This document shows positions 7,483 to 50,572 of a stretch of 64,000 bases of DNA, in pieces. The notes beneath the pieces were generated by a model. The model did not search any database. It saw nothing but the letters and a program-made list of their open reading frames with translations, and was not told where the DNA came from. Position 1 is the first letter of the stretch. The number at the start of each line of letters is the position of its first letter. The DNA lies in the NCBI GenBank assembly GCA_964607415.1, contig CAZSKK010000002.1, forward strand, positions 158,380 through 222,379, written 5' to 3'. Both the position numbers and the translations under genes were made by a program. This DNA is from an uncultured Candidatus Saccharibacteria bacterium. Its GTDB lineage: Bacteria; Patescibacteriota; Dojkabacteria; J137.

Positions 7483-8125
7483 CATCTTTACCATAAAGAA
7501 GTTTTTCTTATTATCACTAGCAGCTTTTCTGTTAGCCTTTTTGTTCATATTTTTACATTTTTACCTCTATTTCGATTTAATCCGCTTTGATAAAGACAGA
7601 TCCTTGCAAGAATTAGTTGAAATAACATTACTTATAGCTTCTAGTCTCATTTGCAATGAAATTATTTTTAAAACCACAAAAAACTTTGTTTTCAAAATTT
7701 TGAGCTTTATTCTCCTTTTTGCAGCTTTCGACGACCTATTCGGTGTTCATGAAATTTTTGGCGCGCTATTTTCGTACATGATGCTTACAAAATCAATTGC
7801 TGAGTCTTTAGGCTCGGAACCGCAAGATATCGGAGAAATGTTTTACTTTGGGAGCCAGGGTATATTTTTTTCTTGGTTATTGATAAAAGATTATAGAAGC
7901 ATAAAATTCGGAATGGCCCCAATACTAATTAGTTCTTTATTCATTTTTACAGGTGGAGTTTTAATTGATTTTTTCAGATCGTTCAGCTTTTTTCCTGAAA
8001 TAAAAAACATCGGGTTTTTTGAAGATTTTATTGAATATCTAGGAATAAATCTTATTTTCCTTTCAACTTTCTACTATACTGTAGGTGTATTTAAAAAAGT
8101 GAAAAATGTCCCAACCTCTAAATGA
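7469..8125 (+). CDS. Integral membrane protein (unknown function)
   Basis: 218 aa hydrophobic ORF. Confidence 0.4.
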   Translation: MMISSIFTIKKFFLLSLAAFLLAFLFIFLHFYLYFDLIRFDKDRSLQELVEITLLIASSLICNEIIFKTTKNFVFKILSFILLFAAFDDLFGVHEIFGALFSYMMLTKSIAESLGSEPQDIGEMFYFGSQGIFFSWLLIKDYRSIKFGMAPILISSLFIFTGGVLIDFFRSFSFFPEIKNIGFFEDFIEYLGINLIFLSTFYYTVGVFKKVKNVPTSK

Positions 8126-10229
8126 ACTTTTTAACCCAAAATCTATAGCTGTAGTTGGTGTTTCCTCTGACAGAAGCAAACTCTCATCGGTTATCTTCCA
8201 AAATATATTAAATGCTGGCTTTCCTGGCAATTTATATCCTGTAAACCCTAACTATAACGAAGTGCTTGGAGTTGAGTGTTATAAGAAAGTGAGTAAACTG
8301 CCCGAAAAAGTAGATCTTGGGGTAATTGTAACAAAAGCTTCAACAGTTTTAGAGATAGTGAAAGATTGTGCCAAAGCACATACCAAAAATTTAATTATAA
8401 TTTCAGCTGGATTTAAAGATGCAGGTCACGAAGGAAAAATTCTTGAGGAGGAAATTTTAAAAGTTGCCAAAAGTGCCGGCATAAGAATTTTAGGGCCAAA
8501 TTGCTTAGGAGTAATTCGTCCAAAATCATCTTTAAACGCATCCTTTGCAGCTCAATTCCCAAAAGCAGGTAGTATAAGTTTTTTTTCTCAATCTGGTGCT
8601 TTTAATACAGCATTACTAGATATGGCTGAAGATACTGGCTTAGGCTTTAACCACTTTGTTTCCATTGGAAATAAATCTGATCTTAACGAGATGGATTTTA
8701 TACGTAACTGGCTACTAGACCCCGAAGTTAAAGTGATAGGGGCATACATAGAAGACTTTGTCGATGGAAAGGATTTTTTAGATCTAATTAATAAATCAGA
8801 ACGAAAGCCTATTGTACTTTTACACTCTGGTGAATCTGAAGTTGGACAAAAAGCAGCAGTTTCACATACTGGGGCAATAGCCGGATCCGCACTAACTATT
8901 AATACAGCTTTTAACAACTCGCACGTAATTAAGGTAAAAAGTTTAGAAAAACTGTTTACAAATATCATGGCTTTTGATCGATTAAAAATCCCAACTGGTA
9001 ATAAAGTAGCAATAGTAACTAACGCCGGAGGTCCAGCAATAATGTTAACTGATATGCTATCCGAAGCTGGATTAAGAATGGCTGAAATATCACAAGAAGT
9101 AAAAAATTCTTTAAGAAAAGCTCTCCCTGAAATCTCTTCTGTAGGTAACCCAATTGATGTTTTAGGTGATGCTGCCAGCGAAAGGTATAAGCTAGCACTC
9201 GAATGTCTGGAAAATGATCCTGATATAGATTCGATCATTGTAGTGCTTACACCTCAATACATAACAGAAATTGAAAATACTGCCAAGATCGTTATAGAAA
9301 GAGTAAAGTCATCAAACAAAACAATAATTCCATTATTTATTGGCGGGAAGTATGTAAGTGATGGATTACAAAGAATGTTTGATGCAAACATTGCAGGGTT
9401 TCAACAGGCTGAGCTTGCTGTAGACGTATTAAAAAATCTTACACACTATGGAGTTATGCTAAAACACTCAGAAGAAAATAAACAGTTACACATGAGTTTT
9501 CCTAAGTATAGAAAAGAAGTCAGTAGTATAGTAAAGAACACTAACGTTCAAACAAGCATTTCAGAAGACTTAAAAAAATTATTAATGCAGGAAGCTGATA
9601 TCCTGGTTCCAGAGGAAAAAACAGTAAGAAACTTTACAGAAACTTTAGATTTTGCAAACCTAATAAAATTCCCGGTAGTTTTAAAAGCAACTTCAAAAGA
9701 TTTAATACACAAAACTGATTTTAAGGGTGTCTTTTTAAATATTTATACTGAAGAACAATTAAAAAGAGATTTCTTTGATTTAAGAAGAAACCTTCAAGCC
9801 AAAACAGGAATTATAGAACCTGATATTTTAATTCAAAAACAAATAAAGGGCGATTTGGAACTTTTTATAGGAATACAAAGAGATGGCAGTAGTGATGTAT
9901 ACAAAAAGGAAGGGAGCGGTTTCGGACATTTATTAGTTTTCGGCCATGGAGGCATTTATACCGAAGTCTATCAAGATTTTTCTCAGGCTCTACTCCCAGC
10001 GTCTAGAGATACCTTAATAAACACAATAAACTCTACAAAAGTTTCTTTAATTATAAACGGATATAGAACTGGTAAAAAACTAAATTTTGATAAGCTTTTA
10101 CAAACGATTAATAAAATACAGAAGCTTGTTTTAAGTTACCCTGAAATTGAAAGCATTGATTTTAACCCTGTGCTGCTCACAAAAGATAAATGTTATTGTG
10201 TTGACGTGAAGATATTTTTAAAGAGATGA
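8106..10229 (+). CDS. acd: Acetyl-CoA synthetase (ADP-forming), fused alpha/beta (acetate--CoA ligase, NDP-forming)
   Basis: N-terminal CoA-binding IAVVGVSSDRSK. Succinyl-CoA-synthetase-like flavodoxin and ATP-grasp regions. 707 aa. Confidence 0.8.
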   Translation: MSQPLNELFNPKSIAVVGVSSDRSKLSSVIFQNILNAGFPGNLYPVNPNYNEVLGVECYKKVSKLPEKVDLGVIVTKASTVLEIVKDCAKAHTKNLIIISAGFKDAGHEGKILEEEILKVAKSAGIRILGPNCLGVIRPKSSLNASFAAQFPKAGSISFFSQSGAFNTALLDMAEDTGLGFNHFVSIGNKSDLNEMDFIRNWLLDPEVKVIGAYIEDFVDGKDFLDLINKSERKPIVLLHSGESEVGQKAAVSHTGAIAGSALTINTAFNNSHVIKVKSLEKLFTNIMAFDRLKIPTGNKVAIVTNAGGPAIMLTDMLSEAGLRMAEISQEVKNSLRKALPEISSVGNPIDVLGDAASERYKLALECLENDPDIDSIIVVLTPQYITEIENTAKIVIERVKSSNKTIIPLFIGGKYVSDGLQRMFDANIAGFQQAELAVDVLKNLTHYGVMLKHSEENKQLHMSFPKYRKEVSSIVKNTNVQTSISEDLKKLLMQEADILVPEEKTVRNFTETLDFANLIKFPVVLKATSKDLIHKTDFKGVFLNIYTEEQLKRDFFDLRRNLQAKTGIIEPDILIQKQIKGDLELFIGIQRDGSSDVYKKEGSGFGHLLVFGHGGIYTEVYQDFSQALLPASRDTLINTINSTKVSLIINGYRTGKKLNFDKLLQTINKIQKLVLSYPEIESIDFNPVLLTKDKCYCVDVKIFLKR

Positions 10230-10233
10230 TAAT

Positions 10234-10261
10234 GAAGCCGTGACGTCGACGTCGCGGCTTC
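10234..10261. terminator. Bidirectional hairpin between convergent acd and porB
   Basis: Near-perfect 28-nt GC-rich palindrome gaagccgtgacgtcgacgtcgcggcttc, standing out against the AT-rich background. Confidence 0.5.
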
Positions 10262-10278
10262 ATTGTAATCATTTAAAT

Positions 10279-11163
10279 TTAAACGAAGTCAGTTACCAAT
10301 TCCGAAATATCATAAATTTTAACCTCGTCTACAAGTTCCGTTTGCATCCCTACCCTATTATGCAGTTTTGATTTTAAGTCTTTCAAATTATCATTTTTAT
10401 ACAAAACTCCAACGGCAATTTTTTCAGAAAGATCAGCTGCAACTCTTCTTGTTTCTTCAATTTTATTAGCATTATAACCTTCTAACATTTCAACCTTAAA
10501 ACAATGCTTTAAGTACCATTCGTGAGGAGTAGCTTCGTTATAGGTTGGGCAAGATTGGAGTATTTCTATAAAACTAAAACCTTTATGATTTAATCCCGCA
10601 CTAATAACTTCAGTCATATGCTTAACATCCCCAGAAAAAGTTCTAGCTAAAAAAGATGGGTTCAGATCTAAAAGTAAATTTATAATATTGATAGGTTCTG
10701 ATTCCACTCCATCAGGAGATGTATCCATAGGTGTTTCTTTTGGTGTTGAAGGAGAAGCCTGACCTTTAGTTAAACCATAATTAGAATTATTATGCAGAAT
10801 AAAAGTAATGTCATAATTTGCCCTAACAGCATGAATAAGGTGATTTATGCCTTCCCCCAAGGTTCCCCCATCACCACCAAAGGCAAGTACTTTAATTTTA
10901 CCGTTTGCAAGGTGAGCTCCAGTAGCCAATGGAATTACTCTACCGTGAAGCGCATGAAATTTATATCCGCCTATCTTATCGGATCCATTTCCATGACAAC
11001 CAATATCGAAACATAAAACAGTTTTTTTAGGTTCAATTTGGTTTGCAACTAATGCTCTTTTTACTGCAGCATGGATCGCATAGTTCCCACAGTTTGTACA
11101 CCAAGTATATATATTTGGTGAATTATAGTCAGCATATTTTACAGTACAGTTATCACAAGACAT
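10279..11163 (-). CDS. porB: 2-oxoacid (pyruvate):ferredoxin oxidoreductase beta subunit (TPP-binding)
   Basis: GCHGNGS...GGDGG TPP-binding motifs and cysteine-rich N-terminus. Confidence 0.8.
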   Translation of the reverse strand: MSCDNCTVKYADYNSPNIYTWCTNCGNYAIHAAVKRALVANQIEPKKTVLCFDIGCHGNGSDKIGGYKFHALHGRVIPLATGAHLANGKIKVLAFGGDGGTLGEGINHLIHAVRANYDITFILHNNSNYGLTKGQASPSTPKETPMDTSPDGVESEPINIINLLLDLNPSFLARTFSGDVKHMTEVISAGLNHKGFSFIEILQSCPTYNEATPHEWYLKHCFKVEMLEGYNANKIEETRRVAADLSEKIAVGVLYKNDNLKDLKSKLHNRVGMQTELVDEVKIYDISELVTDFV

Positions 11164-11227
11164 ATTTTTATTAAGTTCAATGATTAAATGTTCGAATTCC
11201 GAATTTTAGGTATTAAAATTTAAGCTT

Positions 11228-11255
11228 ATTTTGATAGCTTTGATCTTTATTATTA
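11228..11255. repeat. 28-mer repeat, copy 1 (porB-porA intergenic)
   Basis: attttgatagctttgatctttattatta matches 27 of 28 positions with 28498-28525. Confidence 0.5.
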
Positions 11256-13010
11256 TATTAAGTCATTTATTTTATCTCTGATTTCGTCCACAAAGAAAGG
11301 TCTTCCATCAAATCTTAAAATTTTCTGTTCAAATACATATCCAGTTTGCTGAGTAATCAACTTTCCTAGTTGACCTTCATAGTTATTTTCAATCAAAATA
11401 AGCTTATTCCCTTTTTTTATTAACTCATTTAGTTTTTCGGTTTTTAAAGGCCAAATGTATTCGTAATGAAGATAGTTTACTATCTTCCCTCTTGAGAGGG
11501 GATTAAGGGATGTGTTTTTGAGTTCATTTAATGTATCCAACACAGCATTCTTTACACTACCCCATCCTATCAAAGTAATATTTGCATCATCAGAGCCAAA
11601 AAGTTCCGGTTCAGGAAGAATTTGCAAAAGCGCGGCCTCCTTTTTCATTCTTTTTTCAAACATATCAATTACAAGCTTAGATTCTTCTACACTTGTTCCA
11701 TCTTCAGAATGCTCATCAGTATTTGCATCATAAGCTGCAACCGATTGCCCTGGAAACCATCTTGGGGAAACCCCCGATTCTGTTAGCTTGAATCTATCTG
11801 TTGGTTTTAAAGTTTCTAATTCTGAGTTTGAAACTAACCCTCTTTTTATTTCTATTGCATCCGGCAAACGTTCTACTTGGAAATAAGACTCTGCAATTTG
11901 TTTTTCAGTTAAAACAATTACTGGAATTTGAAATTCTTCGGAAATGTTTAAAGCTTCTTGAATTTTTATAAAACAAGATTCAATATCACTTACTGCAATA
12001 ACACACTTTACATATTCTCCATGCGAAGGCGTTACTGCAAGTAGCAAATCTGAAGCCGAAGTCCATGTTGGAAGTCCTGTTGCAGGCCCTGGCCTTTGAG
12101 CCAAAATACAAACAAAAGGAGTTTCTGTAATGGCACTTGCGGAAATCGTCTCAGACATTAAATCGAAACCTCCCCCCGAGGTTCCAGTTAAAGCTCTGGT
12201 TCCCATAAACATACTCCCCAAAGTCATTTGTGCGGCACTAATTTCATCTTCAACTTGTCTTACAATCATTCCAGTTTTTTTATACTGATTAGCAAGATAG
12301 CTTAAAATGGAAGAAGCTGGAGTCATTGGATAAGCATAGTATGCTCTTACCCCAGCAGCAATTGCTCCAAGGGCCAGTGCATGATTTCCAGTTATTAATA
12401 AATCTTTTGTGTTTTTATTCATTTTCTCAAAATCTGTTACATCAACTTTATAAACTTCTTGCTCCGAAAGATCGAAACCTTTTTTAATACATTTAAGATC
12501 AATTTCTAAAAACTTTGGTTTGTCTGCAAATTGTTCTTTAATAAATTCTTCTAATCTGGTTGGCTCAAATCTAAGAAGTTTCCATGTGTAAGAAAGAGCT
12601 ACAATATTTGCAAAAAGATTATCCCCTCCGATTTCAATTGAATATTTAGTAGCGTCTATAAAAAGTACTTTAATATTGTTTTGAATAATAAAATCTTGCT
12701 CTTCTTTTGAAAAATGCATGTGAGGCATTATATGAATAAGTGTTCCATTTTTATTAAGTGATTTTAGATATTTATGTGTAGAAATCCTGCTTAGACATAA
12801 AAGAACATTGCAAGTACTGCTAGATGATCTTATTTCTTTTTCAGAAAAATCAATTTGAAAGCTTGCATAGCCACCTTTAATTAATGATGGATATTCTCTA
12901 TATCCAAAGGTTTTATATCCTAAAGATTTAAGAGCTTTAACTAAAATCTCACCAGTAGAATTGACTCCTTGTCCGGATTCACCACCTATTTTTATTACGT
13001 AACGGCTCAT
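11253..13010 (-). CDS. porA: 2-oxoacid:ferredoxin oxidoreductase fused gamma-alpha subunit
   Basis: N-terminal IKIGGESGQGV is the gamma domain. GNHALALGAIAAGVRAYYAYPMTPAS is the alpha domain. Confidence 0.8.
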   Translation of the reverse strand: MSRYVIKIGGESGQGVNSTGEILVKALKSLGYKTFGYREYPSLIKGGYASFQIDFSEKEIRSSSSTCNVLLCLSRISTHKYLKSLNKNGTLIHIMPHMHFSKEEQDFIIQNNIKVLFIDATKYSIEIGGDNLFANIVALSYTWKLLRFEPTRLEEFIKEQFADKPKFLEIDLKCIKKGFDLSEQEVYKVDVTDFEKMNKNTKDLLITGNHALALGAIAAGVRAYYAYPMTPASSILSYLANQYKKTGMIVRQVEDEISAAQMTLGSMFMGTRALTGTSGGGFDLMSETISASAITETPFVCILAQRPGPATGLPTWTSASDLLLAVTPSHGEYVKCVIAVSDIESCFIKIQEALNISEEFQIPVIVLTEKQIAESYFQVERLPDAIEIKRGLVSNSELETLKPTDRFKLTESGVSPRWFPGQSVAAYDANTDEHSEDGTSVEESKLVIDMFEKRMKKEAALLQILPEPELFGSDDANITLIGWGSVKNAVLDTLNELKNTSLNPLSRGKIVNYLHYEYIWPLKTEKLNELIKKGNKLILIENNYEGQLGKLITQQTGYVFEQKILRFDGRPFFVDEIRDKINDLI

Positions 13011-13286
13011 GCTTTCAAATCTAGATAATATACATTAAGTCTGTAACAAAAAATCTCTGTGTCACATCGAGCAAATTTACAGAATTTGACGAGATGCGGA
13101 CACTAAAACTTCCGAACGGTTAATTAGCTCTATTGATTCCCAATATAACTTACAGCGACTTTGCCTAAAATTTGCTTTTATATTTGTTAGATTCCGCATA
13201 TTTCGCTTTGCTCAATTCCGGAATGACATCTTTTATGGCTCAGGCCTAAAACCTCAAACCTTATTTGCTCTATTGCTCTAACCTCT

Positions 13287-13742
13287 CTAGCTGTCCTTCT
13301 TACCTAACGCATCCATAAACCCATTTATCCAAGGTTTCACATGGTTTTCAATTTGATCATGCGGATCTCCATTTATCCTTAATGCGTGAAACAACTCAGT
13401 TCCTCCCTTTTCTATAAAACTTCTTCTTAAAATATTCATCCCTTCACAGAATTGGACAGGTTCGTATCTGATATCTCCTAATCCTACAAAAGCCGCAATT
13501 TTTCCAGTTAAATCAAGTCCTTTCATTTCATTGTAAAGTCTTGCAAAAAATGGATTAATTTCGCCATGCTCCCAGGTAGATGTCGCAAGAATAAACATAT
13601 TGTTTTCTGTTATTAAATCAATAGGGGCTACTTCTGATCTGTGCAGTTGATTTTCTACCGAATTTGAACTTAATATTTTCGAAATTTCTTCACAAACCAG
13701 CTCAACATTCCCTGAAGTGGATGCATAAACGATTTGAATCAT
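13287..13742 (-). CDS. Flavodoxin
   Basis: MIQIVYASTSGNVE is the flavodoxin FMN-loop signature. 151 aa. Confidence 0.7.
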   Translation of the reverse strand: MIQIVYASTSGNVELVCEEISKILSSNSVENQLHRSEVAPIDLITENNMFILATSTWEHGEINPFFARLYNEMKGLDLTGKIAAFVGLGDIRYEPVQFCEGMNILRRSFIEKGGTELFHALRINGDPHDQIENHVKPWINGFMDALGKKDS

Positions 13743-18673: not shown

Positions 18674-18730
18674 TAATCTTTTCGTCTTGAAAACCTTTAA
18701 CTAATTGGTATAATTAACAAGAATTTTTAT

Positions 18731-18802
18731 TCCTCCTTAGCTCAATGGTGGAGCTGCCCGCTGTTAACGGGAAGGTTGTAGGTTCGAGTCCTACAGGAGG
18801 AG
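18731..18802 (+). tRNA. tRNA-Asn (anticodon GTT)
   Basis: Folded by hand into a cloverleaf. Acceptor TCCTCCT/AGGAGGA, D-arm GCTC/GAGC, anticodon loop CTGTTAA, T-arm GTAGG-TTCGAGT-CCTAC, discriminator G. No CCA is encoded. Confidence 0.8.
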
Positions 18803-18889
18803 ATTTATTTTATTCTCAATCTTCGATTCTCCAATCCACAAATTTACTATCCAGAGTTATAATCAGTTTGCAACATTAATTATTTATTT

Positions 18890-20137
18890 ATGAAAACTTT
18901 ACACATAGAAATTTTAGCTCCAGCGGGATCATTTGAATCACTTGTTACAGCAATTAAAGCTGGCTGCAATGCAGTTTACTTTGGCATTTCTGATATGAAT
19001 ATGCGAGCAACTGCTGCCGCAAATTTTGGATTGAAAGATCTTACAAAAGTTGTTGAGCTTTGCCATAAAGAAAACATTAAAACATATCTAACATTGAATA
19101 CCCTTGTTTATGATTCTGAAATAGAAGAAATGAAATCAATTGTAAAAGCAGCATTTGACGCAAATATCGATGCAGTAATTGCAGCAGACATGGCAACAAT
19201 CTCGTATGCAAAACGTGTTGGGCTTGAAGTTCATATTTCAACACAGCTTTCAGTTTCAAACATTGAAGCGGTTAAATTCTATGCACAATTTTCAGATAGA
19301 ATTGTCCTTGCAAGGGAATTAACTTTGGAGCAAGTAAAGCAAATTTGCACCGAAATTAAAGAACAAAATATTAAAGGCCCTAAAGGGAATTTGATTGAAA
19401 TTGAAGTATTTGCCCACGGAGCACTTTGTGTTGCTGTTAGTGGAAGATGTTCAATGAGCCTTTATTGCTACAACACGTCAGCAAACAAAGGCAGATGTAC
19501 TCAAATTTGTAGAAGAAAATATAAAGTAACTGATATGGATACAGGAAACGAACTAGTGGTAGACAATAATTATATTATGAGTTCTGCTGATCTTTGTACG
19601 ATAGGAATGTTAGATAAGTTAGTTGATTCTGGAGTTTCCGTTTTAAAGTTTGAAGGCCGGGGAAGATCCCCTGAATATGTTGATACAGTGATTAGAACTT
19701 ATAAAAACGCGCTTAAATCCATTGAAGATGAGACTTACACAAAGGAAAAGATTCAGAACTGGAATAAAGATTTAAATACAGTATTTAATAGAGGATTAAC
19801 GCAAGGGTTCTACATGGGAAGACACATGAATGAATGGGCTGGTGTACACGGCAGCAAAGCAACAAAAGAAAAATATCAGATTGGAGTTGTGGAACATTAT
19901 TACAAAAAAGCTGGCATTGCCCAGGTCTTATTTCAAGCAAAAGATACTGTTAAAAAAGATGAAGAATTTATGATTATTGGGCCTAAAACTGGAATTATTA
20001 AAGGCAACCTTTCCGAAATGTGGGTTGATGATAAGTCAGTAGATGAAGTAAAACAAGGTGATGTTGTAACCTTTAAGCTAGATGATGTAGTAAGAGAAAA
20101 CGATAAGTTTTACGTTTGGCGAGACAGGATAGCGTAA
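18890..20137 (+). CDS. Peptidase U32 family protein
   Basis: N-terminal LAPAGSFESLVTAIKAGCNAVYFG and the Cys-rich CxxxxC region match U32. Confidence 0.7.
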   Translation: MKTLHIEILAPAGSFESLVTAIKAGCNAVYFGISDMNMRATAAANFGLKDLTKVVELCHKENIKTYLTLNTLVYDSEIEEMKSIVKAAFDANIDAVIAADMATISYAKRVGLEVHISTQLSVSNIEAVKFYAQFSDRIVLARELTLEQVKQICTEIKEQNIKGPKGNLIEIEVFAHGALCVAVSGRCSMSLYCYNTSANKGRCTQICRRKYKVTDMDTGNELVVDNNYIMSSADLCTIGMLDKLVDSGVSVLKFEGRGRSPEYVDTVIRTYKNALKSIEDETYTKEKIQNWNKDLNTVFNRGLTQGFYMGRHMNEWAGVHGSKATKEKYQIGVVEHYYKKAGIAQVLFQAKDTVKKDEEFMIIGPKTGIIKGNLSEMWVDDKSVDEVKQGDVVTFKLDDVVRENDKFYVWRDRIA

Positions 20138-20337
20138 AATGTAAGACGCCTACTACCCTTGCCTATGCCGTAGGATCTGTAACCTTTTCAGACATTGGCA
20201 GGTTTGATAACTGGCTTAGAAAATTTAAGTATATAGTTATTGAAACATTTAAAAATACTGATGTACAAGTTACCGAAATTTACGTTAACGGCTGGGAATA
20301 TATAATTGATCCTAAGGCCTGAGTTTCAATTCCTGAG

Positions 20338-20360
20338 CTTGATTCATAATTCTTGATTCC
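20338..20360 (+). promoter_or_regulatory. TGATTC/TAATTC heptad motif (family copy 2), upstream of heliorhodopsin
   Basis: cttgattcataattcttgattcc lies 66 bp upstream of the heliorhodopsin ATG. Confidence 0.4.
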
Positions 20361-20425
20361 TCTTTCATATTTAGGTACATTATACTTAAGTTAGCTATCT
20401 TTTTTACTTTTTACACACCTAATCT

Positions 20426-21220
20426 ATGGAAGCAAAAGCTTCAGCAAACGATCCGAAGGTTTTTTCCAATCTTAGGATTTTTAACCTTATAATGGGTGTT
20501 CTACACTTACTTCAAGGAACCTTAATGCTAGCATTAAGTAATGATACAAAGTATACATTAACAACTAGTTTTTTAAGATTTAATCCAAATGCCGCAGAAC
20601 CAGTCCGATCAGTTACTGAAGAGTTAGTTAAAATTCCTCTTGGCCCTGCAATTGCTGCTTTTCTTTTTATTTCGGCAATGGCTCACTTTACAATAGCTGC
20701 GCCTGGAGTATATGAATGGTATGTTAAAAATCTTAAAAAAGGAGCAAACTATGCTAGATGGTATGAATACTCAATTAGCTCATCTTTAATGATAGGAGTA
20801 ATTGGCATTCTTTGCGGAATATTTGATGCACCAAGCTTGATTCTATTAATGGCGTTAAACGCTTGTATGATTTTTTTTGGTCTTGTGATGGAGCTTCATA
20901 ATCAAACAACTAAAAAAACCGATTGGACTTCATTTATTTATGGTTGTTTTGCTGGAATTGTACCTTGGCTAATCTTAGGCTGGTATTTTTTTGATGCAAT
21001 TGCAAATGTAGAGACAACAAATCCTGTTCCTAAATTTGTTTATGGAATACTAATTTCGCTATTCATATTCTTTAATATTTTTGCTGTAAATATGTTTTTG
21101 CAGTACAAAAAAGTTGGGCCCTGGAAGAATTATATATTTGGTGAAAAAATGTACATAGTTTTGAGTTTACTTGCAAAGTCAGCTCTTGCTTGGCAAGTAT
21201 TTTCTGGAACATTGAGATAA
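20426..21220 (+). CDS. Heliorhodopsin (7TM microbial rhodopsin, inverted topology)
   Basis: 264 aa with 7 TM helices. Diagnostic blocks WYEYSISSSLMI, CFAGIVPW, FVYGILISLFIFFN and YIVLSLLAKSALAWQVFSG match heliorhodopsin family signatures. The last block contains the retinal Schiff-base Lys. Confidence 0.8.
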   Translation: MEAKASANDPKVFSNLRIFNLIMGVLHLLQGTLMLALSNDTKYTLTTSFLRFNPNAAEPVRSVTEELVKIPLGPAIAAFLFISAMAHFTIAAPGVYEWYVKNLKKGANYARWYEYSISSSLMIGVIGILCGIFDAPSLILLMALNACMIFFGLVMELHNQTTKKTDWTSFIYGCFAGIVPWLILGWYFFDAIANVETTNPVPKFVYGILISLFIFFNIFAVNMFLQYKKVGPWKNYIFGEKMYIVLSLLAKSALAWQVFSGTLR

Positions 21221-21256
21221 AAAAATAAATTTTATAAAACGAATTAAAGTTGCAAT

Positions 21257-21283
21257 CCCCTTCTTGAATGTGGCAAGAGGGGG
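21257..21283 (+). terminator. GC-rich hairpin after heliorhodopsin
   Basis: ccccttcttg-aatgtgg-caagaggggg is a 10-bp stem with one G-U pair. No strong U-tract follows. Confidence 0.35.
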
Positions 21284-21486
21284 GGAGAAGTTCATTGTTC
21301 TTAAACTTGCAGCATTAATTAGCATCTGGGACATAAAGATGTAAGTTTTTATAAATTACTTTAAACTTTTTTACTTGTAACTTTCAACTTTTCTAGTACA
21401 CCTGTTTATACAAAAATATTAAAATGAATAAACTTAAATTAAATAGCTTTGCACTTACTGATTTTTGCTTCTAGAACGACCATCCA

Positions 21487-24400
21487 ATGGTCTTTAAAGC
21501 CAATTTTTGCTATAATTTAAAATCTATGGAAGTAATAACAAGTCCTAACAATGCAAATTCAGAAGTAAAGTTTAGTACTCGACCTAGACCAACTCATTTA
21601 ATTGATAGAAGAGAAATAGTAATAGATTATCTTAGAGGTTTTGCAGTGGCTTTGATGATTATTACCCATGTAATTGCCATTACTTTCAACGGTAGTTCTG
21701 GAAATGAATTAGTAAAAAATATTGGGCTTATTGGAGGAATAGGATCTTTCACTTCATTTTTATTTATATCTGGTATAAGTTCTTTTTTAAGTTTTGTTAA
21801 GAATGATGATAGTGAAGCCGAAAAAATAAAACAAAAGGGAAGAAGAATAATTGCCAAAAATTTACAACTGTTGGGCATTTATTACATTTTGGCTACTTTT
21901 TCGATTTTTGTTAATACTTCGCTTTATTCCTTTCCACCTAATACGGGCTGGATAGAGACAATTACAAAAACGGTATTTTTTATTATAGTTCCTCCCTTTA
22001 CTGAGTTTCTACTTGCACTTTTAGCTTTCAGCTTAAGTACAGTATTTTTAAGAAAACTTTATAGATTTCTACTAAATAATCCTCTAATTGGGCTTCCTTT
22101 TATGGGAGCTAGTTTCGCGATTGGATCATTAATATACAAAGTTGATTTTGGAGCGACGGAACTAAATTCTATTAAAGCCTTGTTTGGGGGACACCTTGAA
22201 TACCATACATTCCCGCTATTTCAATATCTGCCTATCTTTTTGCTTGGATTGTATTTTGGGAAATTTTTATACAATAATGCTGATGTACTAAAAAGATTAA
22301 AGTTAAATTTTATTTGGTTAATTATCTTTGGCACGTTCACAATTCAAAGCTACTTCGTCTTTAATTATTTTGATTACCAGATTTTTGATGCACTTCCCGA
22401 TTCAGGTAGATTTCCACCGTCATTAGCATTCATTGCCCTTAGCTTAACCATTACTTTGAGTGCCATGTTTATAATAACGGCACTATTCAAAGCAATCCCT
22501 AGTTTGATAAAAGCCCCTCTACATTTTATGGGAGTGAATGCTTTAGACATGTTCTTTTTTCATACAGCAATTTTGTTTTTGTACAAATACTTAACATCAA
22601 GCAGCGTTAATCCTAATGGCAAACTTTACTCTGGTACAATAACAATTTTATTTCTATATTTTGTTGTCATTGCATTAAGTATAATCTTTACTAATGTTCG
22701 GAGAAGTTTTAAAGATTGGAGTACACAAGAAAACGGAGGAGATCTGTGGTGGTTCTTTACCGAAAGAGCCGTATCATCAATTATATTTGTAATTATTTTT
22801 GGTATTGTAGGGACAACTTTTTATAGAGACGTTTTTGCAAACCCTGCAAGTTTAGATACAGCTAACATTCAATTTAAAAAAAGATTAATTAGAGAAGAAG
22901 AATGGCCAATATGGTGGGATAATGGTTTTGAAGCATTTAGGCAATTAATGATTACCGCACCTGCTTCTGATAATCTATTTAAAAATAGTTGGGTGAGTGC
23001 AAGCTTTAATCACAGAGAAGCATTAAACAATGGCAGAGCTTACTACGAAAATGGATCTGATGTGCGGGTAGTATTTTATGATTCAGTTTTGGGAGAGTTT
23101 AAAGAGCTTCCTTTTAAATTTGAATCTATAGGTACTGAATCTGCTTCAGTCACATTCAAACTTGTTGAAGATATTCCTTCAGCAACGCAGCTGGATCGAT
23201 ACTTTATTTACTACGGAAATGAATTTATAAGAGATTTTACAGATACTAAAGATACGCCTAGTGGATCGGTTTTTGCAAGTGGGGTATCTGTAAATCCTGA
23301 AACTATCCATTCAATAGATGCCTCCGTAAATAGAAGATGGTACCTTAAAAAGAAAGAAACTGCTTACCAAGCAGCCTCTTTGGTTGTGAGTGCTAGGTTG
23401 AACAACGAAAATATAGCCGATGGAAGTATAGTGACATACTCTATCCCAGGAACTGATAAATTTGGAAGGATGAAGCAGGTTAACGGAAGAGATTATCAAG
23501 CATCAATTGTTGTTTCTGACTTAGAACCAGGTATTTATTCTGTTGTTGCGAATGTAACAGAATCTAAAGATGATTTAAAAATATTTAGAAGCCAGGAAAT
23601 CCCGTTCTATATAACTTATCCTATATATGTTACCTGGACTCAGGACTGGGAAGGCTTTGATGTTAACCAAGTTGATCTCGACAGTATGGCATCAATTGCT
23701 GATCAACATGGAATGCCCATGGTTCACCTTTTTAACCCTAGAATTTACATAAGAAATCAATATTCTTATGCCAATATTAGTGAATCTAGAGCTAAATACA
23801 TCTCAGACTGGGTTAAAGAAAGACAGCAAGAGAGATTTGAAGAAATAGGAATGCATATGCATATGTTTCCAGATATGGTTTCAGAAGCAGGAGTTGCACC
23901 AAAATACGATGTAGTTGTAGGAGCAGCGTATGGAGATACCAAAACAAATGCCTACACCGAAGAAGAGTTAACAAAAATCTTCTCGTGGGGTAGACAAAAA
24001 TTTTCAGAAAATGCGTTAGGCGCCCCAATTAGCTACAGAACTGGCGCATGGATGTCAGGACCAAATGTTCTTAAAGCCGCCCAGAATACTGGCTTTCTTA
24101 TTGATACAACCGGAAGAACTGGAGGACCAATTAACCCAGCCCAACCTTCTAGTTCCCAAGTTCCTTGGAGCTTATCTGTAACAACATATCCATACCTTCC
24201 TAGTGTAAGCGATATTAATAAATGGGAAGGTGATAGATTAAACATATGGGAATTTCCTAATAACGGCGCCGACTCCTTCTGGTTTAGCTTGCAAGAATTG
24301 ATAAGTAGATTTGATCAAAACTATCCAAATAAAGGTTCTATTGTAACAAGACCTCAGGTAGTTACGTACTTATCTCACCCTCACTGGTTTGCAGGTGTAG

Positions 24401-24537
24401 ATAGTCCAAAAATTAGAGGCTTGTTTAGCTATACCGATCAGTTTTTATTTAAAAATGACGCAGGACCAGTTATTTACGCAACCCTTGAAGACATCTATTC
24501 TCAATGGGATAGGGATAAATTTATCAATGGAAATTAA
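21487..24537 (+). CDS. Large envelope protein: N-terminal acyltransferase-3 (OatA-like) membrane domain fused to a ~600-aa extracytoplasmic domain
   Basis: IDYLRGFAVALMIITHV is the AT3 motif, followed by about 10 TM helices. The C-terminal soluble region has a His-rich patch (IGMHMHMF) suggestive of a hydrolase/deacetylase fold. 1016 aa. Confidence 0.5.
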   Translation: MVFKANFCYNLKSMEVITSPNNANSEVKFSTRPRPTHLIDRREIVIDYLRGFAVALMIITHVIAITFNGSSGNELVKNIGLIGGIGSFTSFLFISGISSFLSFVKNDDSEAEKIKQKGRRIIAKNLQLLGIYYILATFSIFVNTSLYSFPPNTGWIETITKTVFFIIVPPFTEFLLALLAFSLSTVFLRKLYRFLLNNPLIGLPFMGASFAIGSLIYKVDFGATELNSIKALFGGHLEYHTFPLFQYLPIFLLGLYFGKFLYNNADVLKRLKLNFIWLIIFGTFTIQSYFVFNYFDYQIFDALPDSGRFPPSLAFIALSLTITLSAMFIITALFKAIPSLIKAPLHFMGVNALDMFFFHTAILFLYKYLTSSSVNPNGKLYSGTITILFLYFVVIALSIIFTNVRRSFKDWSTQENGGDLWWFFTERAVSSIIFVIIFGIVGTTFYRDVFANPASLDTANIQFKKRLIREEEWPIWWDNGFEAFRQLMITAPASDNLFKNSWVSASFNHREALNNGRAYYENGSDVRVVFYDSVLGEFKELPFKFESIGTESASVTFKLVEDIPSATQLDRYFIYYGNEFIRDFTDTKDTPSGSVFASGVSVNPETIHSIDASVNRRWYLKKKETAYQAASLVVSARLNNENIADGSIVTYSIPGTDKFGRMKQVNGRDYQASIVVSDLEPGIYSVVANVTESKDDLKIFRSQEIPFYITYPIYVTWTQDWEGFDVNQVDLDSMASIADQHGMPMVHLFNPRIYIRNQYSYANISESRAKYISDWVKERQQERFEEIGMHMHMFPDMVSEAGVAPKYDVVVGAAYGDTKTNAYTEEELTKIFSWGRQKFSENALGAPISYRTGAWMSGPNVLKAAQNTGFLIDTTGRTGGPINPAQPSSSQVPWSLSVTTYPYLPSVSDINKWEGDRLNIWEFPNNGADSFWFSLQELISRFDQNYPNKGSIVTRPQVVTYLSHPHWFAGVDSPKIRGLFSYTDQFLFKNDAGPVIYATLEDIYSQWDRDKFINGN

Positions 24538-24540
24538 GTT

Positions 24541-26565
24541 ATGACTAATTTAGAATTTTCAACCTATATAACCTTCTTTATAGCTTTTGCTCTACTGGCT
24601 TTAGCTTTCGACTTACTATTTATTGGAAAGTTCCTTTACAAAGTGGTCAAAAAACGACACTTTAAAATTAGCTTCAAAAGCAAAAAATTATGGTTGAAGA
24701 TTTTGGTTTTCCTGTTATTTAACATTGCAATTCCAGGTGCAATTACTTATGTAGCATATCAAAAATACGAAAAGACAACTCCAACAATTACAAAATCAAC
24801 GCCATCAGGTGAAGGAGTTTGGTCCAGTTATTCAAAGCCTTTAGAAGTTGAATTCAATGTGCCTGTAAGCACTGTGAGGCTTTCTCCTAAAATAAATCCT
24901 ACTCTTGCCGGTGAATGGAAATGGGAACCTTACTATGGAACGCATGCACTAACAACTAAGGGTAAGTTCTACCCAAATGAAAGTTTATTCCCTGGGCAAA
25001 GAGTTGTTGTTTACATAACAGGAATCAGGCGAGCAAAGCATAATGAAAATCATGAAGCTGGGTTTGTATTTGATTCAGTTAAACTACCTGAAATTAATGT
25101 CTCAGACCCATTTAATAAATCTAAGGATGTTTCTTTAGAAACAAACATAGATTTGTTTTTAAATAAAAAAGATGAAAACTTACAAAACTGGAAATTTGAA
25201 TTTTCGCCAAAAATCGACTTCGAGGTCAGAACAATAAGCGAAACGCAATTTCAAATAGACCCAGCACTACCGTTTAATCAAAGTGAGAAGTACACACTTT
25301 ATGTTTCAAGACAAGCTAAAAGAGTTAACCTTGAAAACAAAGAGACAATAGAAGAGGATGGATACGAAGTTGTTAATAGGATTGAATTTGAAACACCTAA
25401 AGAGCCGCTTGTTAAAAGTTTTTCTCCAAAAGGTACTGGCGTAAAACAAGATGCTAAGATTAGAATTCGTTTTGAAGTACCAATGATTAGAGAGAACGTG
25501 GAGACATTATTTAAAATCACTCCAAGCGTTGAAGGTACTTTTGGATGGGAGGATGATAGAATCCTTAATTTTACACCCAATACCCTACTTCCAAAGGAAA
25601 CTTCTTATAAAGTTTCATTTCCTGAAGGTCTAGAAAGCCAAGGTGGTGGTGTTTCTGCCAAAGAAATTAGTTTTGAATTTGTAACAATTGGCGCAATACA
25701 ATTGCAATCATCTAGTCCTGCAAATGCTGCAACTAGAGTTAATGAATCTACAGAAATTAAAATAACTTTTGACCAAGAAGTTGATCAAACTTCCGCTCAA
25801 TCAAATTTTACGATATCTCCAAATATTGGAGGTAATTTTAGATGGGAAGGCAATACAATGATTTTTGACCCAAATAACAATTTGAATTTCAGCACAACCT
25901 ATACTGTTTCTCTTCAACCTGGAATTAAGTCGATTTATGGAATTGATAGCAGGGACAAATTTAACTTTAGTTTTACAACCAGATCAAACCAGGTGACTAT
26001 TTCTCTACCTATTTTTTATCAACCTCAGCCTTCATTCTCTTGTAATATTTATGCAACCAGAATGGGACTTGCATGGAAAGGTTACAACCTGGATGCAACA
26101 GCTATTATCGCTGAATTAGGCTATAACGATCAAAATATTAATGGGCAATGGCAAGGAAACCCAAACACACAATATGTTGGAACATATGATGGAAGTTGGG
26201 GATACGGTGTACACTGGAATCCAGTAAAAAGATTATTTGATAACAGAGGCCTAACGACCACCTTAAACGTAGGTTGGAACACGAGAGATCTTGCAAGAAC
26301 AATAGAAAACGGCAATCCCGTTATCATTTGGCGATATAATGGTGTTAGTGCAGATTATAACCTGAATTGGGTTGCGGCTGATGGTACCTATGTAAATGCA
26401 ATTAATGGACAACACGGTGGAGTTATTACAGGGTACAGAGGTACAAGTGACAATCCTACACAATTTCAAATTAATGATCCTTGGTATGGAATAATCTGGA
26501 TGGATGCCGGGGTATTTGATTACTATTGGTCTCGCTTAAATCGAGTTGGGTTGGTAATATATTAG
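24541..26565 (+). CDS. Surface protein: TM anchor, tandem bacterial Ig-like domains and C-terminal C39-like cysteine peptidase domain
   Basis: Repeated Ig-like blocks (NFTISPNIGGNFRWEGNTMIFDP...TYTVSL). The C-terminus has CNIYATRMGLAWKGY...HGGVITGY...NDPWYG, which resembles the Peptidase_C39_2 Cys/His/Asp arrangement. Confidence 0.5.
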   Translation: MTNLEFSTYITFFIAFALLALAFDLLFIGKFLYKVVKKRHFKISFKSKKLWLKILVFLLFNIAIPGAITYVAYQKYEKTTPTITKSTPSGEGVWSSYSKPLEVEFNVPVSTVRLSPKINPTLAGEWKWEPYYGTHALTTKGKFYPNESLFPGQRVVVYITGIRRAKHNENHEAGFVFDSVKLPEINVSDPFNKSKDVSLETNIDLFLNKKDENLQNWKFEFSPKIDFEVRTISETQFQIDPALPFNQSEKYTLYVSRQAKRVNLENKETIEEDGYEVVNRIEFETPKEPLVKSFSPKGTGVKQDAKIRIRFEVPMIRENVETLFKITPSVEGTFGWEDDRILNFTPNTLLPKETSYKVSFPEGLESQGGGVSAKEISFEFVTIGAIQLQSSSPANAATRVNESTEIKITFDQEVDQTSAQSNFTISPNIGGNFRWEGNTMIFDPNNNLNFSTTYTVSLQPGIKSIYGIDSRDKFNFSFTTRSNQVTISLPIFYQPQPSFSCNIYATRMGLAWKGYNLDATAIIAELGYNDQNINGQWQGNPNTQYVGTYDGSWGYGVHWNPVKRLFDNRGLTTTLNVGWNTRDLARTIENGNPVIIWRYNGVSADYNLNWVAADGTYVNAINGQHGGVITGYRGTSDNPTQFQINDPWYGIIWMDAGVFDYYWSRLNRVGLVIY

Positions 26566-26761: not shown

Positions 26762-26992
26762 ATGTTAAAACAGCTAGTCTACTCTCTAACAATTTCACTT
26801 ATGGTAGCCGGAGGATTCCTAGCGTACATGTTTTTAATCGGAATTCCCAAAACTAAAGCCAGAAACTATTACAATCAAGGTATGATTGCAAGGGAGGAAG
26901 GAAATGAAGCCGAAGCTCAAAAAGATTTTGAAAAAGCTCTTACTTATTGGGACGAAGAATATATTAAAAAGGAAATGAAGAAAAGTGAATAA
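26762..26992 (+). CDS. Small membrane-anchored protein (76 aa)
   Basis: One N-terminal TM helix followed by a charged helical tail. Confidence 0.3.
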   Translation: MLKQLVYSLTISLMVAGGFLAYMFLIGIPKTKARNYYNQGMIAREEGNEAEAQKDFEKALTYWDEEYIKKEMKKSE

Positions 26993-50148: not shown

Positions 50149-50538
50149 ATGTATAAAACTAAAGAAGGCAAAGTTTGCGCATCTCTAACAGAGGTAAAAA
50201 ACAGAACTGGTGATATTTTTGACATGGTAGATGAATTTGGCGAAGTAATTTTAACTTCTTACAATAAGGAAAGGTATAAAATTACCAAAATTGATCTTTC
50301 CTCTACACTTGAAATTAAGAGCGAGAGTAAGACTAAGGATGAAAACAGGATCCAAGCCGAAAACACTCCTAAGTACGAACCTACAACTTTTGTAGACAAT
50401 AGCAAAGAAGAAATAAGCTCAGAAGATACCAACGAAATCAATGACGAAAACCTGATCTCTAATGATTTTAAGCTTTGGGATAGAGAAAACAAGCTTGAAA
50501 AAGAGTTTGCTGAAAACGCAAAAAAAGCTCTGCAGTAA
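50149..50538 (+). CDS. Phd/YefM-like antitoxin with long acidic C-terminal tail
   Basis: N-terminal SLTEVKNRTGDIFDMVDEFGEVILTSYNKERYKI is the Phd/YefM fold pattern. Positioned 34 bp upstream of the PIN gene. Confidence 0.4.
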   Translation: MYKTKEGKVCASLTEVKNRTGDIFDMVDEFGEVILTSYNKERYKITKIDLSSTLEIKSESKTKDENRIQAENTPKYEPTTFVDNSKEEISSEDTNEINDENLISNDFKLWDRENKLEKEFAENAKKALQ

Positions 50539-50572
50539 ATCAAACTAATATTATTTTATATTAACTCAAAAA

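What the first reader, a model, noticed from the sequence alone, without database searches (positions are those of the whole stretch)
20426..21220. Heliorhodopsin gene in a CPR-like reduced genome, directly upstream of two giant envelope proteins
The 264-aa 7TM protein carries the heliorhodopsin family blocks WYEYSISSSLMI, CFAGIVPW, FVYGILISLFIFFN and YIVLSLLAKSALAWQVFSG, including the TM7 Schiff-base Lys. Heliorhodopsins are still functionally unresolved, and the window contains no retinal-biosynthesis gene. The gene is preceded by a TGATTC heptad motif and followed, after a GC-rich hairpin, by a 1016-aa AT3-fused envelope protein and a 674-aa Ig-like/C39-peptidase surface protein. This genomic neighbourhood could hint at an envelope-related role.
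Basis: partly seen in the sequence, partly recalled or inferred. Interest (0 to 1): 0.75.

Follow-up and report, generated by a model that had tools for sequence, protein, structure and literature searches.

The report
Ordinary heliorhodopsin gene in a Dojkabacterium
The gene is a textbook heliorhodopsin (a light-sensing retinal membrane protein) in a small-genome CPR bacterium, a combination already published, and its position next to two cell-envelope genes is a species-specific accident of gene order, not a clue to function.

Summary
ORF 20426..21220(+) encodes a 264-aa heliorhodopsin: Pfam PF18761 329 bits, NCBIfam HeR equivalog 341 bits (cutoff 100), TaHeR E 1e-73, and a model that superposes on TaHeR at 1.8 A. 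The Schiff-base Lys (K251), the counterion (E114), the SxxxK serine, both His, the polar cavity residues and the retinal/carotenoid fenestration residues of 48C12 are all conserved. Charge distribution supports an N-terminus-in topology. The host is a Candidatus Dojkabacteria (CPR) bacterium.

None of this is new. More than 7,100 homologues exist, NCBI already names close ones 'heliorhodopsin HeR', and Chiriac et al. 2022 reported 98 CPR HeRs, 7 of them in Dojkabacteria.

The interpretive hint of an envelope-related role is not supported. AT3->Ig/C39 is a conserved two-gene module in four related genomes with no HeR within 10 kb. In one complete chromosome the two lie about 760 kb apart. HeR abuts AT3 only in this species and a 95%-identical relative, separated by 266 bp and a hairpin. 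The 'TGATTC' repeat is a 7-bp insertion absent from the relative.

Most likely function: a stand-alone, retinal-scavenging light sensor/regulator with an unknown partner. Low interest.

The parts
20426..21220 (+). Heliorhodopsin (HeR) gene, 264 aa. Schiff-base Lys K251 in an S247-L-L-A-K251 motif; counterion E114; H27 and H87; fenestration residues F170, C174, G177, F216, N217, A220.
20362..20425 (+). Upstream segment nearly identical in the 95% relative. It probably holds the HeR promoter and 5' UTR. Candidate elements are TTGATT 20353-20358 with TACATT 20376-20381, or TATACT 20381-20386. All fall below the consensus-scan threshold, so this is inference only.
   Evidence: Alignment; scan; sequence.
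20338..20359 (+). One copy is a 7-bp insertion relative to the 95% relative. There is no evidence that the repeat has a function.
21256..21284 (+). GC-rich hairpin 36 nt after the HeR stop codon: 11-bp stem, 7-nt loop, no T tract. A hairpin is present at the same position in the 95% relative with a different 5' arm. It is a likely terminator or RNA-stability element that ends the HeR transcription unit.
   Evidence: It is not listed by the terminator scan because it has no T run.
20116..20322 (+). 68-aa ORF that is the 3' remnant of a 134-aa gene. That gene is intact between U32 and HeR in the 95% relative (L089 1489-1893). The window has lost the gene's 5' half and the hairpin that follows the U32 stop.
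21487..24537 (+). Neighbour, not functionally linked to HeR by any evidence found here. A 1016-aa membrane protein with an AT3 acyltransferase domain (about residues 44-412), one further TM helix, beta-sandwich domains (about 480-720) and a CE4/NodB-like deacetylase-fold domain (about 720-1016).
24541..26565 (+). Neighbour. A 674-aa membrane-anchored protein with Ig-like Big_5 domains and a C-terminal C39-like cysteine-peptidase domain. It starts 3 bp after the AT3 gene ends and is always paired with it in relatives.

Best explanation
This is a canonical heliorhodopsin of a Candidatus Dojkabacteria (CPR/Patescibacteria) bacterium.

Shown here:
- It belongs to the HeR family by sequence, fold and every defining residue.
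- Its closest solved relative is the archaeal TaHeR.
- It is separated from the downstream genes by a long spacer and a hairpin.
- Its genomic position varies among close relatives.

Inferred from the family:
- It inserts with the N-terminus in the cytoplasm.
- It binds all-trans retinal as a protonated Schiff base on K251, with E114 as counterion.
- It has a slow photocycle and transports no ions. It acts as a light sensor or regulator that changes the activity of a partner protein, as shown for other HeRs with glutamine synthetase, photolyase and an ABC transporter.
- No retinal-synthesis gene is in the window, CPR genomes generally lack them, and the lateral fenestration residues are intact. 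The chromophore, and possibly a carotenoid antenna, is therefore most likely scavenged from the environment or a host cell.

The partner in this organism is unknown. The adjacent AT3/CE4 and Ig/C39 envelope genes form an independent conserved module that happens to lie next to HeR in this species.
For: Family membership: PF18761 329 bits; NF038020 equivalog 341 bits against cutoff 100; TaHeR 6is6 E 1.4e-73 and 48C12 E 1.3e-60.

Fold: AlphaFold model pLDDT 87, seven TM helices plus an AB beta-hairpin. The top 10 PDB fold hits are all HeRs (TM 0.87/0.92, 1.8 A). Type-1 rhodopsins appear only from E 1.6e-3 at 8-18% identity.

Residues: of the residues Kovalev et al. list as conserved (PMC7049168), all are retained except three. 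Q213 is Met here, a variant that paper calls frequent. L227 is Ile. P40, in the variable AB loop, is Thr. All six fenestration/carotenoid-site positions of 10.1101/2025.11.27.691015 are identical to 48C12. 64 columns are invariant among 32 homologues, including K251, E114, H27 and H87.

Topology: 10 K+R in loops on the N-terminal side against 5 on the other side, and 4 of those 5 lie in the 34-residue AB hairpin.

Retinal genes: none in the window. Precedent for retinal scavenging in CPR and for fast retinal uptake by HeR through the opening: PMC9296517.

Independence from neighbours.

Transcription-unit boundary.

CPR HeRs already catalogued: PMC9166423, PMC8612252.
Against: Nothing contradicts the identification.

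The functional part (sensor/regulator with scavenged retinal) is transferred from other HeRs and was not tested here.
- Only 64 kb of the genome was examined, so a blh/crt cluster elsewhere cannot be excluded.
- No known HeR partner type (glutamine synthetase, photolyase, ABC transporter, MerR, TerC, SDR and others; PMC11109279) is encoded next to the gene.
- The hairpin lacks a T tract, so read-through into the AT3 gene is not excluded.
- A recent preprint argues that HeRs are two-antenna light harvesters rather than sensors.
Confidence: 0.88

Rival explanations
1. One reading: HeR works with the downstream AT3/CE4 acyltransferase-deacetylase and the Ig/C39 surface peptidase, for example as a light-dependent regulator of cell-envelope glycan acylation.
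For: The genes are co-directional and adjacent in this species and in the 95% relative. The demonstrated HeR partners are encoded by adjacent genes and are themselves lineage-restricted (PMC11109279). Both HeR and the AT3 protein are integral membrane proteins.
Against: AT3->Ig/C39 is conserved in four relatives with no HeR within 10 kb. In chromosome OZ246402.1, AT3 lies at about 52 kb and HeR at about 817 kb. No AT3 or Ig/C39 homologue lies near HeR in the 80 other HeR loci, apart from one weak C39-like match in an Anaerolineae locus. HeRs at 64-73% identity sit next to other genes. A 266-bp spacer holds a hairpin, and a conserved AT-rich segment lies upstream of AT3. Acyltransferases and peptidases are not among the ten recurrent neighbour groups of 448 helR genes.
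Confidence: 0.04
2. HeR is functionally tied to the flavodoxin/PFOR fermentative module, for example as a light or oxidative-stress sensor protecting oxygen-sensitive pyruvate:ferredoxin oxidoreductase.
For: In the 64% relative, HeR lies 70 bp upstream of flavodoxin-PFOR on the same strand. In the 73% relative it lies about 0.8 kb upstream. The same cluster is 6.7 kb upstream of HeR in the window. Bulzu et al. and Chiriac et al. propose a role for HeR in oxidative-stress mitigation.
Against: Only two contigs of one clade show this adjacency. None of the 80 genome loci does. In relatives without HeR at this site, flavodoxin-PFOR lies 2-4 kb upstream of AT3. The pattern is therefore explained by HeR sitting in a variable stretch between two conserved blocks of the same chromosome region.
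Confidence: 0.06
3. HeR here is mainly a light-harvesting 'two-antenna' protein that binds an exogenous xanthophyll at the fenestration, rather than a sensor.
For: All six carotenoid-site positions (aromatic pair F170/F216, small C174/A220, G177, N217) match 48C12. The preprint 10.1101/2025.11.27.691015 reports this site in 91% of HeRs. This reading is compatible with a CPR cell that scavenges lipophilic molecules.
Against: Carotenoid binding to HeRs rests on docking and sequence analysis in a preprint. No energy-conserving output such as ion transport is known for this HeR subfamily. It is not exclusive of a sensor role.
Confidence: 0.15
4. HeR is an ion transporter or channel, like the viral V2HeR3.
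For: Proton transport has been reported for a viral HeR subfamily (cited in PMC12873467 and PMC11109279).
Against: The protein groups with TaHeR and 48C12, not with viral subfamily 2. It keeps His at both cavity positions, Pro180 (P172 of 48C12) and Leu at the position equivalent to 48C12 L202, where many subfamily-2 members have Glu (mapping; PMC7049168). It has the fenestration that the CBS-lacking viral group lacks.
Confidence: 0.03
5. The gene is a decaying or non-functional relic, because the cell cannot make retinal.
For: No retinal genes were found in the window. An adjacent gene has been truncated.
Against: The reading frame is intact and identical on 7 contigs read, four of them shown and from four different sequencing runs. 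Every functional residue is conserved, and 64 columns are invariant over 32 homologues.
Confidence: 0.02

Closest known systems
TaHeR, heliorhodopsin of Thermoplasmatales archaeon SG8-52-1 (PDB 6IS6, 7U55)
   Same: 52% identity over the full length. The model superposes at 1.8 A (TM 0.87/0.92). It shares the Lys/Glu/Ser/His set and also has Met at the 48C12 Q213 position. TaHeR's lateral opening allows fast uptake of external retinal (PMC9296517).
   Different: The host is a bacterium (CPR), not an archaeon. The EF loop is 7 residues longer and the AB loop 1 residue longer. Not characterised experimentally.
Heliorhodopsin 48C12 (PDB 6SU3, 6UH3), the founding member
   Same: About 47% identity. 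Of the residues listed as conserved in PMC7049168, all are retained except Q213->M, L227->I and P40->T. The six fenestration residues are identical.
   Different: Q213 is Met. P40 in the AB loop aligns to Thr. 48C12 comes from an actinobacterial fosmid.
CPR heliorhodopsins catalogued by Chiriac et al. 2022 (PMC9166423) and Bulzu et al. 2021 (PMC8612252)
   Same: Same family and same phylum-level host group (7 HeRs reported in Dojkabacteria). Same SxxxK TM7 motif type: SLLAK here, against SLVAK, SLIAK and SFVAK as the most common.
   Different: This particular orthologue is at most 65% identical to the HeR of any species-representative genome scanned.
HeR-partner pairs with demonstrated regulation: AbHeR-glutamine synthetase (PMC9529153), TfHeR-photolyase (PMC9769723), OcHeR-OmrDE ABC transporter (PMC11109279)
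   Same: Probably the same mode of action: light-activated HeR binds and modulates another protein.
   Different: None of these partner genes is adjacent to HeR here or found in the window's scanned ORFs. The gene appears to be a stand-alone unit, like the majority of helR genes (275 of 448 had no co-operonic neighbour in PMC11109279).

Membership tests
Heliorhodopsin (PF18761 / NF038020) | Full-length match to the curated family models above threshold | tested here: met
   Pfam 329.1 bits (cutoff 26.7), profile positions 1-242 of 242. NCBIfam equivalog 340.8 bits (cutoff 100).
Heliorhodopsin (PF18761 / NF038020) | Seven-TM rhodopsin fold closest to solved HeRs, with a long beta-hairpin AB loop | tested here: met
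   AlphaFold pLDDT 87.1; seven long helices plus strands at 42-52 and 60-71. Foldseek top 10 hits are all HeRs, TM 0.81-0.87 (query-normalised).
Heliorhodopsin (PF18761 / NF038020) | Schiff-base Lys in TM7 within an SxxxK motif (type-1 rhodopsins have DxxxK) | tested here: met
   S247-L-L-A-K251 aligns to S237/K241 of 48C12. Both are invariant in 32 homologues.
Heliorhodopsin (PF18761 / NF038020) | Single Glu counterion in TM3, with stabilising Ser residues and the two cavity His | tested here: met
   E114, S118, S83, H27 and H87 correspond to E107, S111, S76, H23 and H80 of 48C12.
Heliorhodopsin (PF18761 / NF038020) | Inverted topology: N-terminus cytoplasmic, C-terminus outside | tested here: met
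   Positive-inside count is 10 K+R on the N-terminal side against 5, of which 4 lie in the long AB hairpin. This is a prediction only, supported by homology to structures of known orientation. It cannot be tested experimentally here.
Heliorhodopsin (PF18761 / NF038020) | Binds all-trans retinal, absorbs near 550 nm, slow photocycle, no ion transport | not testable with these tools
   Requires heterologous expression and spectroscopy.
Heliorhodopsin (PF18761 / NF038020) | Host is a monoderm (Flores-Uribe et al., bioRxiv 10.1101/356287) | tested here: met
   Indirect. The window encodes sortase, FemAB, a Mur ligase and amidases, and no outer-membrane or LPS genes. The host is a Dojkabacterium.
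Type-1 microbial rhodopsin (PF01036) | Match to the Bac_rhodopsin model, DxxxK motif in TM7, N-terminus outside | tested here: not met
   No PF01036 hit at E <= 0.01. The motif is SxxxK. Type-1 structures match only at E >= 1.6e-3 and 8-18% identity.
HeR-partner operons (GS, photolyase, ABC transporter and the other groups of PMC11109279) | A recurrent partner gene in the same operon as helR | tested here: not met
   The neighbours are a U32-family gene, a gene remnant and AT3/CE4. None belongs to the ten groups. A hairpin and a 266-bp spacer separate HeR from AT3.
Conserved HeR-AT3-Ig/C39 gene cluster (as implied by the finding) | Co-occurrence of the three genes across related genomes | tested here: not met
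   0 of 4 AT3-Ig/C39 loci in relatives carry HeR. Outside the window species and its 95% relative, none of the 80 genome loci or the 3 closer metagenome loci carries AT3, and only one Anaerolineae locus has a weak C39-like match.

The most novel reading that the evidence does not exclude
In this one Dojkabacteria species, HeR has been recruited next to a lineage-specific envelope module and acts as a light switch on it. The module is an AT3 acyltransferase fused to a CE4-like deacetylase, plus an Ig/C39 surface peptidase. This would couple light, or host-derived retinal, to remodelling of the cell surface of an episymbiont. The evidence does not strictly exclude it, because demonstrated HeR partnerships are also lineage-restricted and encoded by adjacent genes.
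Probability: 0.04. Interest if true: 0.6.

Novelty: new member of a known kind. Interest (0 to 1): 0.15.

Why it matters
It matters little beyond correct annotation. It is one more of thousands of heliorhodopsins, in a phylum where they are already catalogued, and standard pipelines would name it automatically.

The useful result is negative. The attractive 'guilt by association' with two large envelope proteins disappears as soon as related genomes are compared, so this locus should not be used to argue for an envelope role of heliorhodopsins. The locus does fit the published picture of CPR rhodopsins that rely on scavenged retinal.

Tried and rejected
1. Conserved HeR-AT3-Ig/C39 cluster. tblastn of both neighbours against 80 species-level HeR loci found nothing, apart from one weak C39-like hit in an Anaerolineae locus (L066). 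Rejected.

2. HeR-flavodoxin/PFOR association. It is seen in two close relatives but in none of the 80 loci. Treated as local synteny.

3. Unbiased clustering of 748 ORFs within 5 kb of HeR in 83 loci. No family occurs in more than 9 loci. The recurrent ones are clade-specific blocks, for example in a Paceibacteria group, and some are spurious ORFs from high-GC genomes. These families were not followed up with Pfam.

4. 'TGATTC' as a regulatory repeat. It is not conserved in the 95% relative and the hexamer is common in the window. Rejected.

5. Consensus promoter/terminator scan. It found no convincing sigma-70 promoter directly upstream of HeR. The one 10/12 match (20279-20306) is not conserved in the relative. 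The hairpin is not called a terminator because it lacks a T run.

6. Sequence searches for the C-terminal 585 aa of the AT3 protein. Pfam, NCBIfam and PDB gave nothing. Only the structure prediction revealed the CE4-like fold.

7. Whole-genome test for blh/crt.

Full report
**1. The observation**

- It matches Pfam PF18761 (Heliorhodopsin) over the whole model at 329 bits, E 1.8e-98.
- It matches NCBI's equivalog model NF038020 'heliorhodopsin HeR' at 340.8 bits against a cutoff of 100.
- Among solved structures the best matches are TaHeR (6IS6, E 1.4e-73) and 48C12 (6SU3/6UH3, E ~1e-60). Nothing else scores below E 0.1.
- An AlphaFold model built on 32 homologues (pLDDT 87, pTM 0.82) has seven long helices and the characteristic beta-hairpin AB loop.
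- Its ten best PDB fold matches are all heliorhodopsins (TaHeR: TM 0.87/0.92, rmsd 1.8 A, 52% identity). Type-1 rhodopsins appear only from E 1.6e-3 at 8-18% identity.

**2. Defining residues**

I mapped the HMMER alignment onto 48C12 numbering and used the residue lists of Kovalev et al. 2020 (PMC7049168).

| Group | Query residues (48C12 equivalent) |
|---|---|
| Schiff base and stabilisers | K251 (K241), S247 (S237), E114 (E107), S118, S83 |
| Schiff-base cavity | H27, H87, N108, Y115, N20, E240, R111, Y99 |
| Glu149 region | E156, Q226, Y236, W112 |
| Helix-E proline | P180 |

- Three listed positions differ. Q213 is Met, a variant the paper calls frequent and which TaHeR also has. L227 is Ile. 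P40, in the variable AB loop, aligns to Thr.
- The six positions that define the lateral fenestration/carotenoid site are F170, C174, G177, F216, N217 and A220, identical to 48C12 (bioRxiv 10.1101/2025.11.27.691015).
- In an alignment of 32 homologues at 59-95% identity, 64 columns are invariant, including all of these catalytic positions.
- Using the model's helices, loops on the N-terminal side carry 10 Lys+Arg against 5 on the other side, and four of those five lie in the 34-residue AB hairpin. This agrees with the inverted, N-in topology of the family.

**3. Host and window**

- GC content is about 0.33 throughout.
- The window encodes IleRS, Fmt, ParAB, RNase Y, RpoD, FtsQ/A/Z, sortase, FemAB, a Mur ligase, amidases, PFOR + flavodoxin + ADP-forming acetyl-CoA synthetase, two TrmB regulators and many ORFs without a Pfam match.
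- Every named best hit of the IleRS is Candidatus Dojkabacteria, so 'CPR-like' is right.
- No ORF scanned matches Blh, phytoene synthase or desaturase, lycopene cyclase, or a type-1 rhodopsin. The only isoprenoid-related hit is a UbiA-family prenyltransferase inside the ftsQ-ftsA-ftsZ cluster.
- Only 64 kb of the genome could be inspected, so absence of retinal synthesis from the whole genome is not shown. It would fit Jaffe et al. 2022. They found no blh in rhodopsin-bearing Saccharibacteria and argued for retinal obtained from hosts. They also noted that HeR takes up external retinal rapidly through an opening in the apoprotein (PMC9296517).

**4. How new is it?**

- The homologue search returned 7,105 proteins at E <= 1e-20 among the 8,000 candidates scored. 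Relatives at 60-63% identity are already named 'heliorhodopsin HeR' by NCBI in Dojkabacteria, a Patescibacteria group bacterium and Dehalococcoidia.
- The genome scan found relatives in Dojkabacteria, 'Saccharibacteria', Nomurabacteria, Paceibacteria, Woykebacteria, many Chloroflexota, Actinomycetota and Thermoplasmatota.
- Chiriac et al. 2022 screened CPR genomes and reported 98 HeRs (80 in Saccharimonadia, 7 in Dojkabacteria) with the SxxxK motif (PMC9166423).
- Bulzu et al. 2021 analysed HeR neighbourhoods including Patescibacteria (PMC8612252).
- The statement that HeRs are 'functionally unresolved' is only partly current. Light-dependent regulation has been shown for glutamine synthetase (PMC9529153), photolyase (PMC9769723) and an ABC transporter (PMC11109279). 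Proton transport has been reported for a viral HeR.

**5. The neighbourhood claim**

The exact HeR protein occurs on 7 contigs read. The four shown come from four different sequencing runs, and those that reach downstream have the same HeR-AT3-Ig/C39 order. A 95%-identical HeR also keeps U32 - 134-aa gene - HeR - AT3 - Ig/C39. Beyond that, the link disappears.
- (a) tblastn of the AT3 and Ig/C39 proteins against 80 species-representative HeR loci with up to 10 kb of flank found no neighbour. The one exception was a weak C39-like hit in an Anaerolineae locus.
- (b) HeRs at 73%, 70% and 64% identity lie next to DUF2461/flavodoxin-PFOR, TrmB/YceG-RuvX, and malic enzyme/flavodoxin-PFOR respectively.
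- (c) The AT3 fusion protein has only 17 full-length homologues. In the four whose contigs I could read (AT3 49-53% identical), AT3 is followed within 2-50 bp by the Ig/C39 gene, then an AI-2E-family permease, Fmt and IleRS. This is the backbone seen in the window, yet there is no HeR within 10 kb, either as a called gene or by tblastn.
- (d) In the complete 1.19-Mb chromosome OZ246402.1, AT3-Ig/C39 lies at about 52-57 kb and HeR at about 817 kb.
- (e) Unbiased clustering of 748 ORFs within 5 kb of HeR in 83 loci found no family in more than 9 loci, and the recurrent ones are clade-specific blocks.
- (f) Shim et al. 2024 classified the neighbours of 448 helR genes into ten recurrent groups. 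None is an acyltransferase or peptidase.

AT3-Ig/C39 is therefore an independent conserved two-gene module. HeR sits in a variable stretch between that module and the RuvX-YceG-PFOR-flavodoxin block. This also explains why HeR abuts flavodoxin/PFOR in two relatives.

**6. Flanking non-coding DNA**

- Downstream, a strong 11-bp-stem hairpin (21256-21284, -17 kcal/mol) follows the stop codon. The 106-nt region folds far better than shuffles (z -4.5).
- The 95% relative has a hairpin at the same place, sharing the 3' arm but with a different 5' arm, followed by a T run. The last ~110 bp before the AT3 start are well conserved.
- With the 266-bp spacer, this argues for separate transcription units. 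Without a T tract in the window, read-through cannot be excluded.
- Upstream, the 'TGATTC motif' is two copies of CTTGATTC. The alignment shows that one copy is a 7-bp insertion absent from the relative. The hexamer occurs 64 times in the window against 46 +/- 7 expected.
- The ~65 bp immediately before the ATG are almost identical in the relative and probably hold the promoter and 5' UTR. No element reaches the consensus-scan threshold.
- The 68-aa ORF at 20116-20322 is the 3' remnant of a 134-aa gene that is intact in the relative. The deletion also removed the hairpin that follows the U32 gene there.

**7. Mechanism**

- Shown: family membership, an intact chromophore pocket, an intact fenestration, predicted N-in topology, and a position that varies independently of its neighbours.
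- Inferred from characterised HeRs: retinal is bound at K251 with E114 as counterion; the photocycle is slow and no ions are transported; the output goes through a protein partner; retinal, and perhaps a xanthophyll, is scavenged through the fenestration.
- The partner is unknown. None of the published partner types is adjacent to HeR or found in the window's scanned ORFs.
- Rivals are listed with their probabilities: envelope coupling, PFOR/oxidative-stress coupling, antenna-based light harvesting, ion transport, and a relic gene.

**8. Verdict**

The identification is correct and the gene is ordinary. It is a new member of a well-known family in a phylum where the family has already been reported. 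The contextual inference is not supported. Interest is low.

Noticed in passing
window 21487-24537 (+): The 1016-aa 'AT3' protein is a fusion. It has an AT3/HGSNAT-like acyltransferase membrane domain, one extra TM helix, beta-sandwich domains and a C-terminal domain. That last domain has no Pfam, NCBIfam or PDB sequence hit, but its predicted fold matches CE4/NodB polysaccharide/peptidoglycan deacetylases (HP0310, ArnD; TMt ~0.64). Invariant Asp/His residues (D720, H747, H790, H792, D796, H964, H966) suggest a metal site. An acyltransferase fused to a deacetylase fold is unusual. Only 17 full-length homologues were found, all apparently in this Dojkabacteria-like lineage.
   Followed up: partly
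window 21487-26565; L095-L098: AT3/CE4 and the Ig-like/C39-peptidase gene form a tightly conserved pair (2-50 bp apart) in every relative examined. Relatives have an AI-2E-family permease next, then Fmt and IleRS. The permease is missing in the window, where a 76-aa TPR-like ORF (26762-26992) takes its place.
   Followed up: partly
window 20116-20322 (+): This 68-aa ORF is the C-terminal remnant of a 134-aa gene of unknown function that is intact between U32 and HeR in the 95% relative (L089 1489-1893). The deletion also removed the hairpin after the U32 stop.
   Followed up: yes
window 6835-13742; L085, L087, L097, L098: A fermentative cluster runs PAP2 - hypothetical - ADP-forming acetyl-CoA synthetase - PFOR beta - PFOR alpha/gamma - flavodoxin. 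HeR lies next to or close upstream of its flavodoxin end in two relatives with 64-73% identical HeRs. In relatives lacking HeR at this site, the cluster lies 2-4 kb upstream of AT3. The stretch between flavodoxin and AT3 looks like a rearrangement hot spot.
   Followed up: partly
window 43718-44428 (-): A 236-aa UbiA-family prenyltransferase sits between ftsQ and ftsA in the division cluster. It scores far below every NCBIfam equivalog cutoff, so its substrate is unknown.
   Followed up: no
window 18890-20137 (+): The U32 'peptidase' upstream of HeR scores best against the TrhP (tRNA U34 hydroxylase) and UbiU models, below their cutoffs. It lies just downstream of tRNA-Asn (18730-18803). It is more likely an O2-independent hydroxylase than a protease.
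   Followed up: no
L024, L031 (Kosmotogaceae MAGs): HeR genes at 53-55% identity occur on 59-kb and 92-kb contigs assigned to Kosmotogaceae (Thermotogota), a lineage with an outer 'toga'. If the binning is correct, this would be an exception to the 'HeRs only in monoderms' rule.
   Followed up: no
L001-L080: HeRs from CPR, Chloroflexota, Actinomycetota and Thermoplasmatota are all 52-65% identical to the query, with phyla interleaved in the ranking. This suggests repeated horizontal transfer of this HeR subfamily among uncultivated lineages from several phyla.
   Followed up: no
window 37405-38229 (-); L091-L093: A fused HEPN + nucleotidyltransferase (minimal NT) protein is conserved next to rpoD in all relatives examined, which is an unusually stable position for a toxin-antitoxin-like module. 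A PIN-domain gene with a small upstream ORF (50149-50947) lies next to tRNA-Pro.
   Followed up: no
L097 17414-20668, L098 18577-21828: IleRS in two relatives is about 1083 aa against 992 aa in the window. It aligns in two blocks, which indicates an insertion of about 90 aa near residue 480.
   Followed up: no
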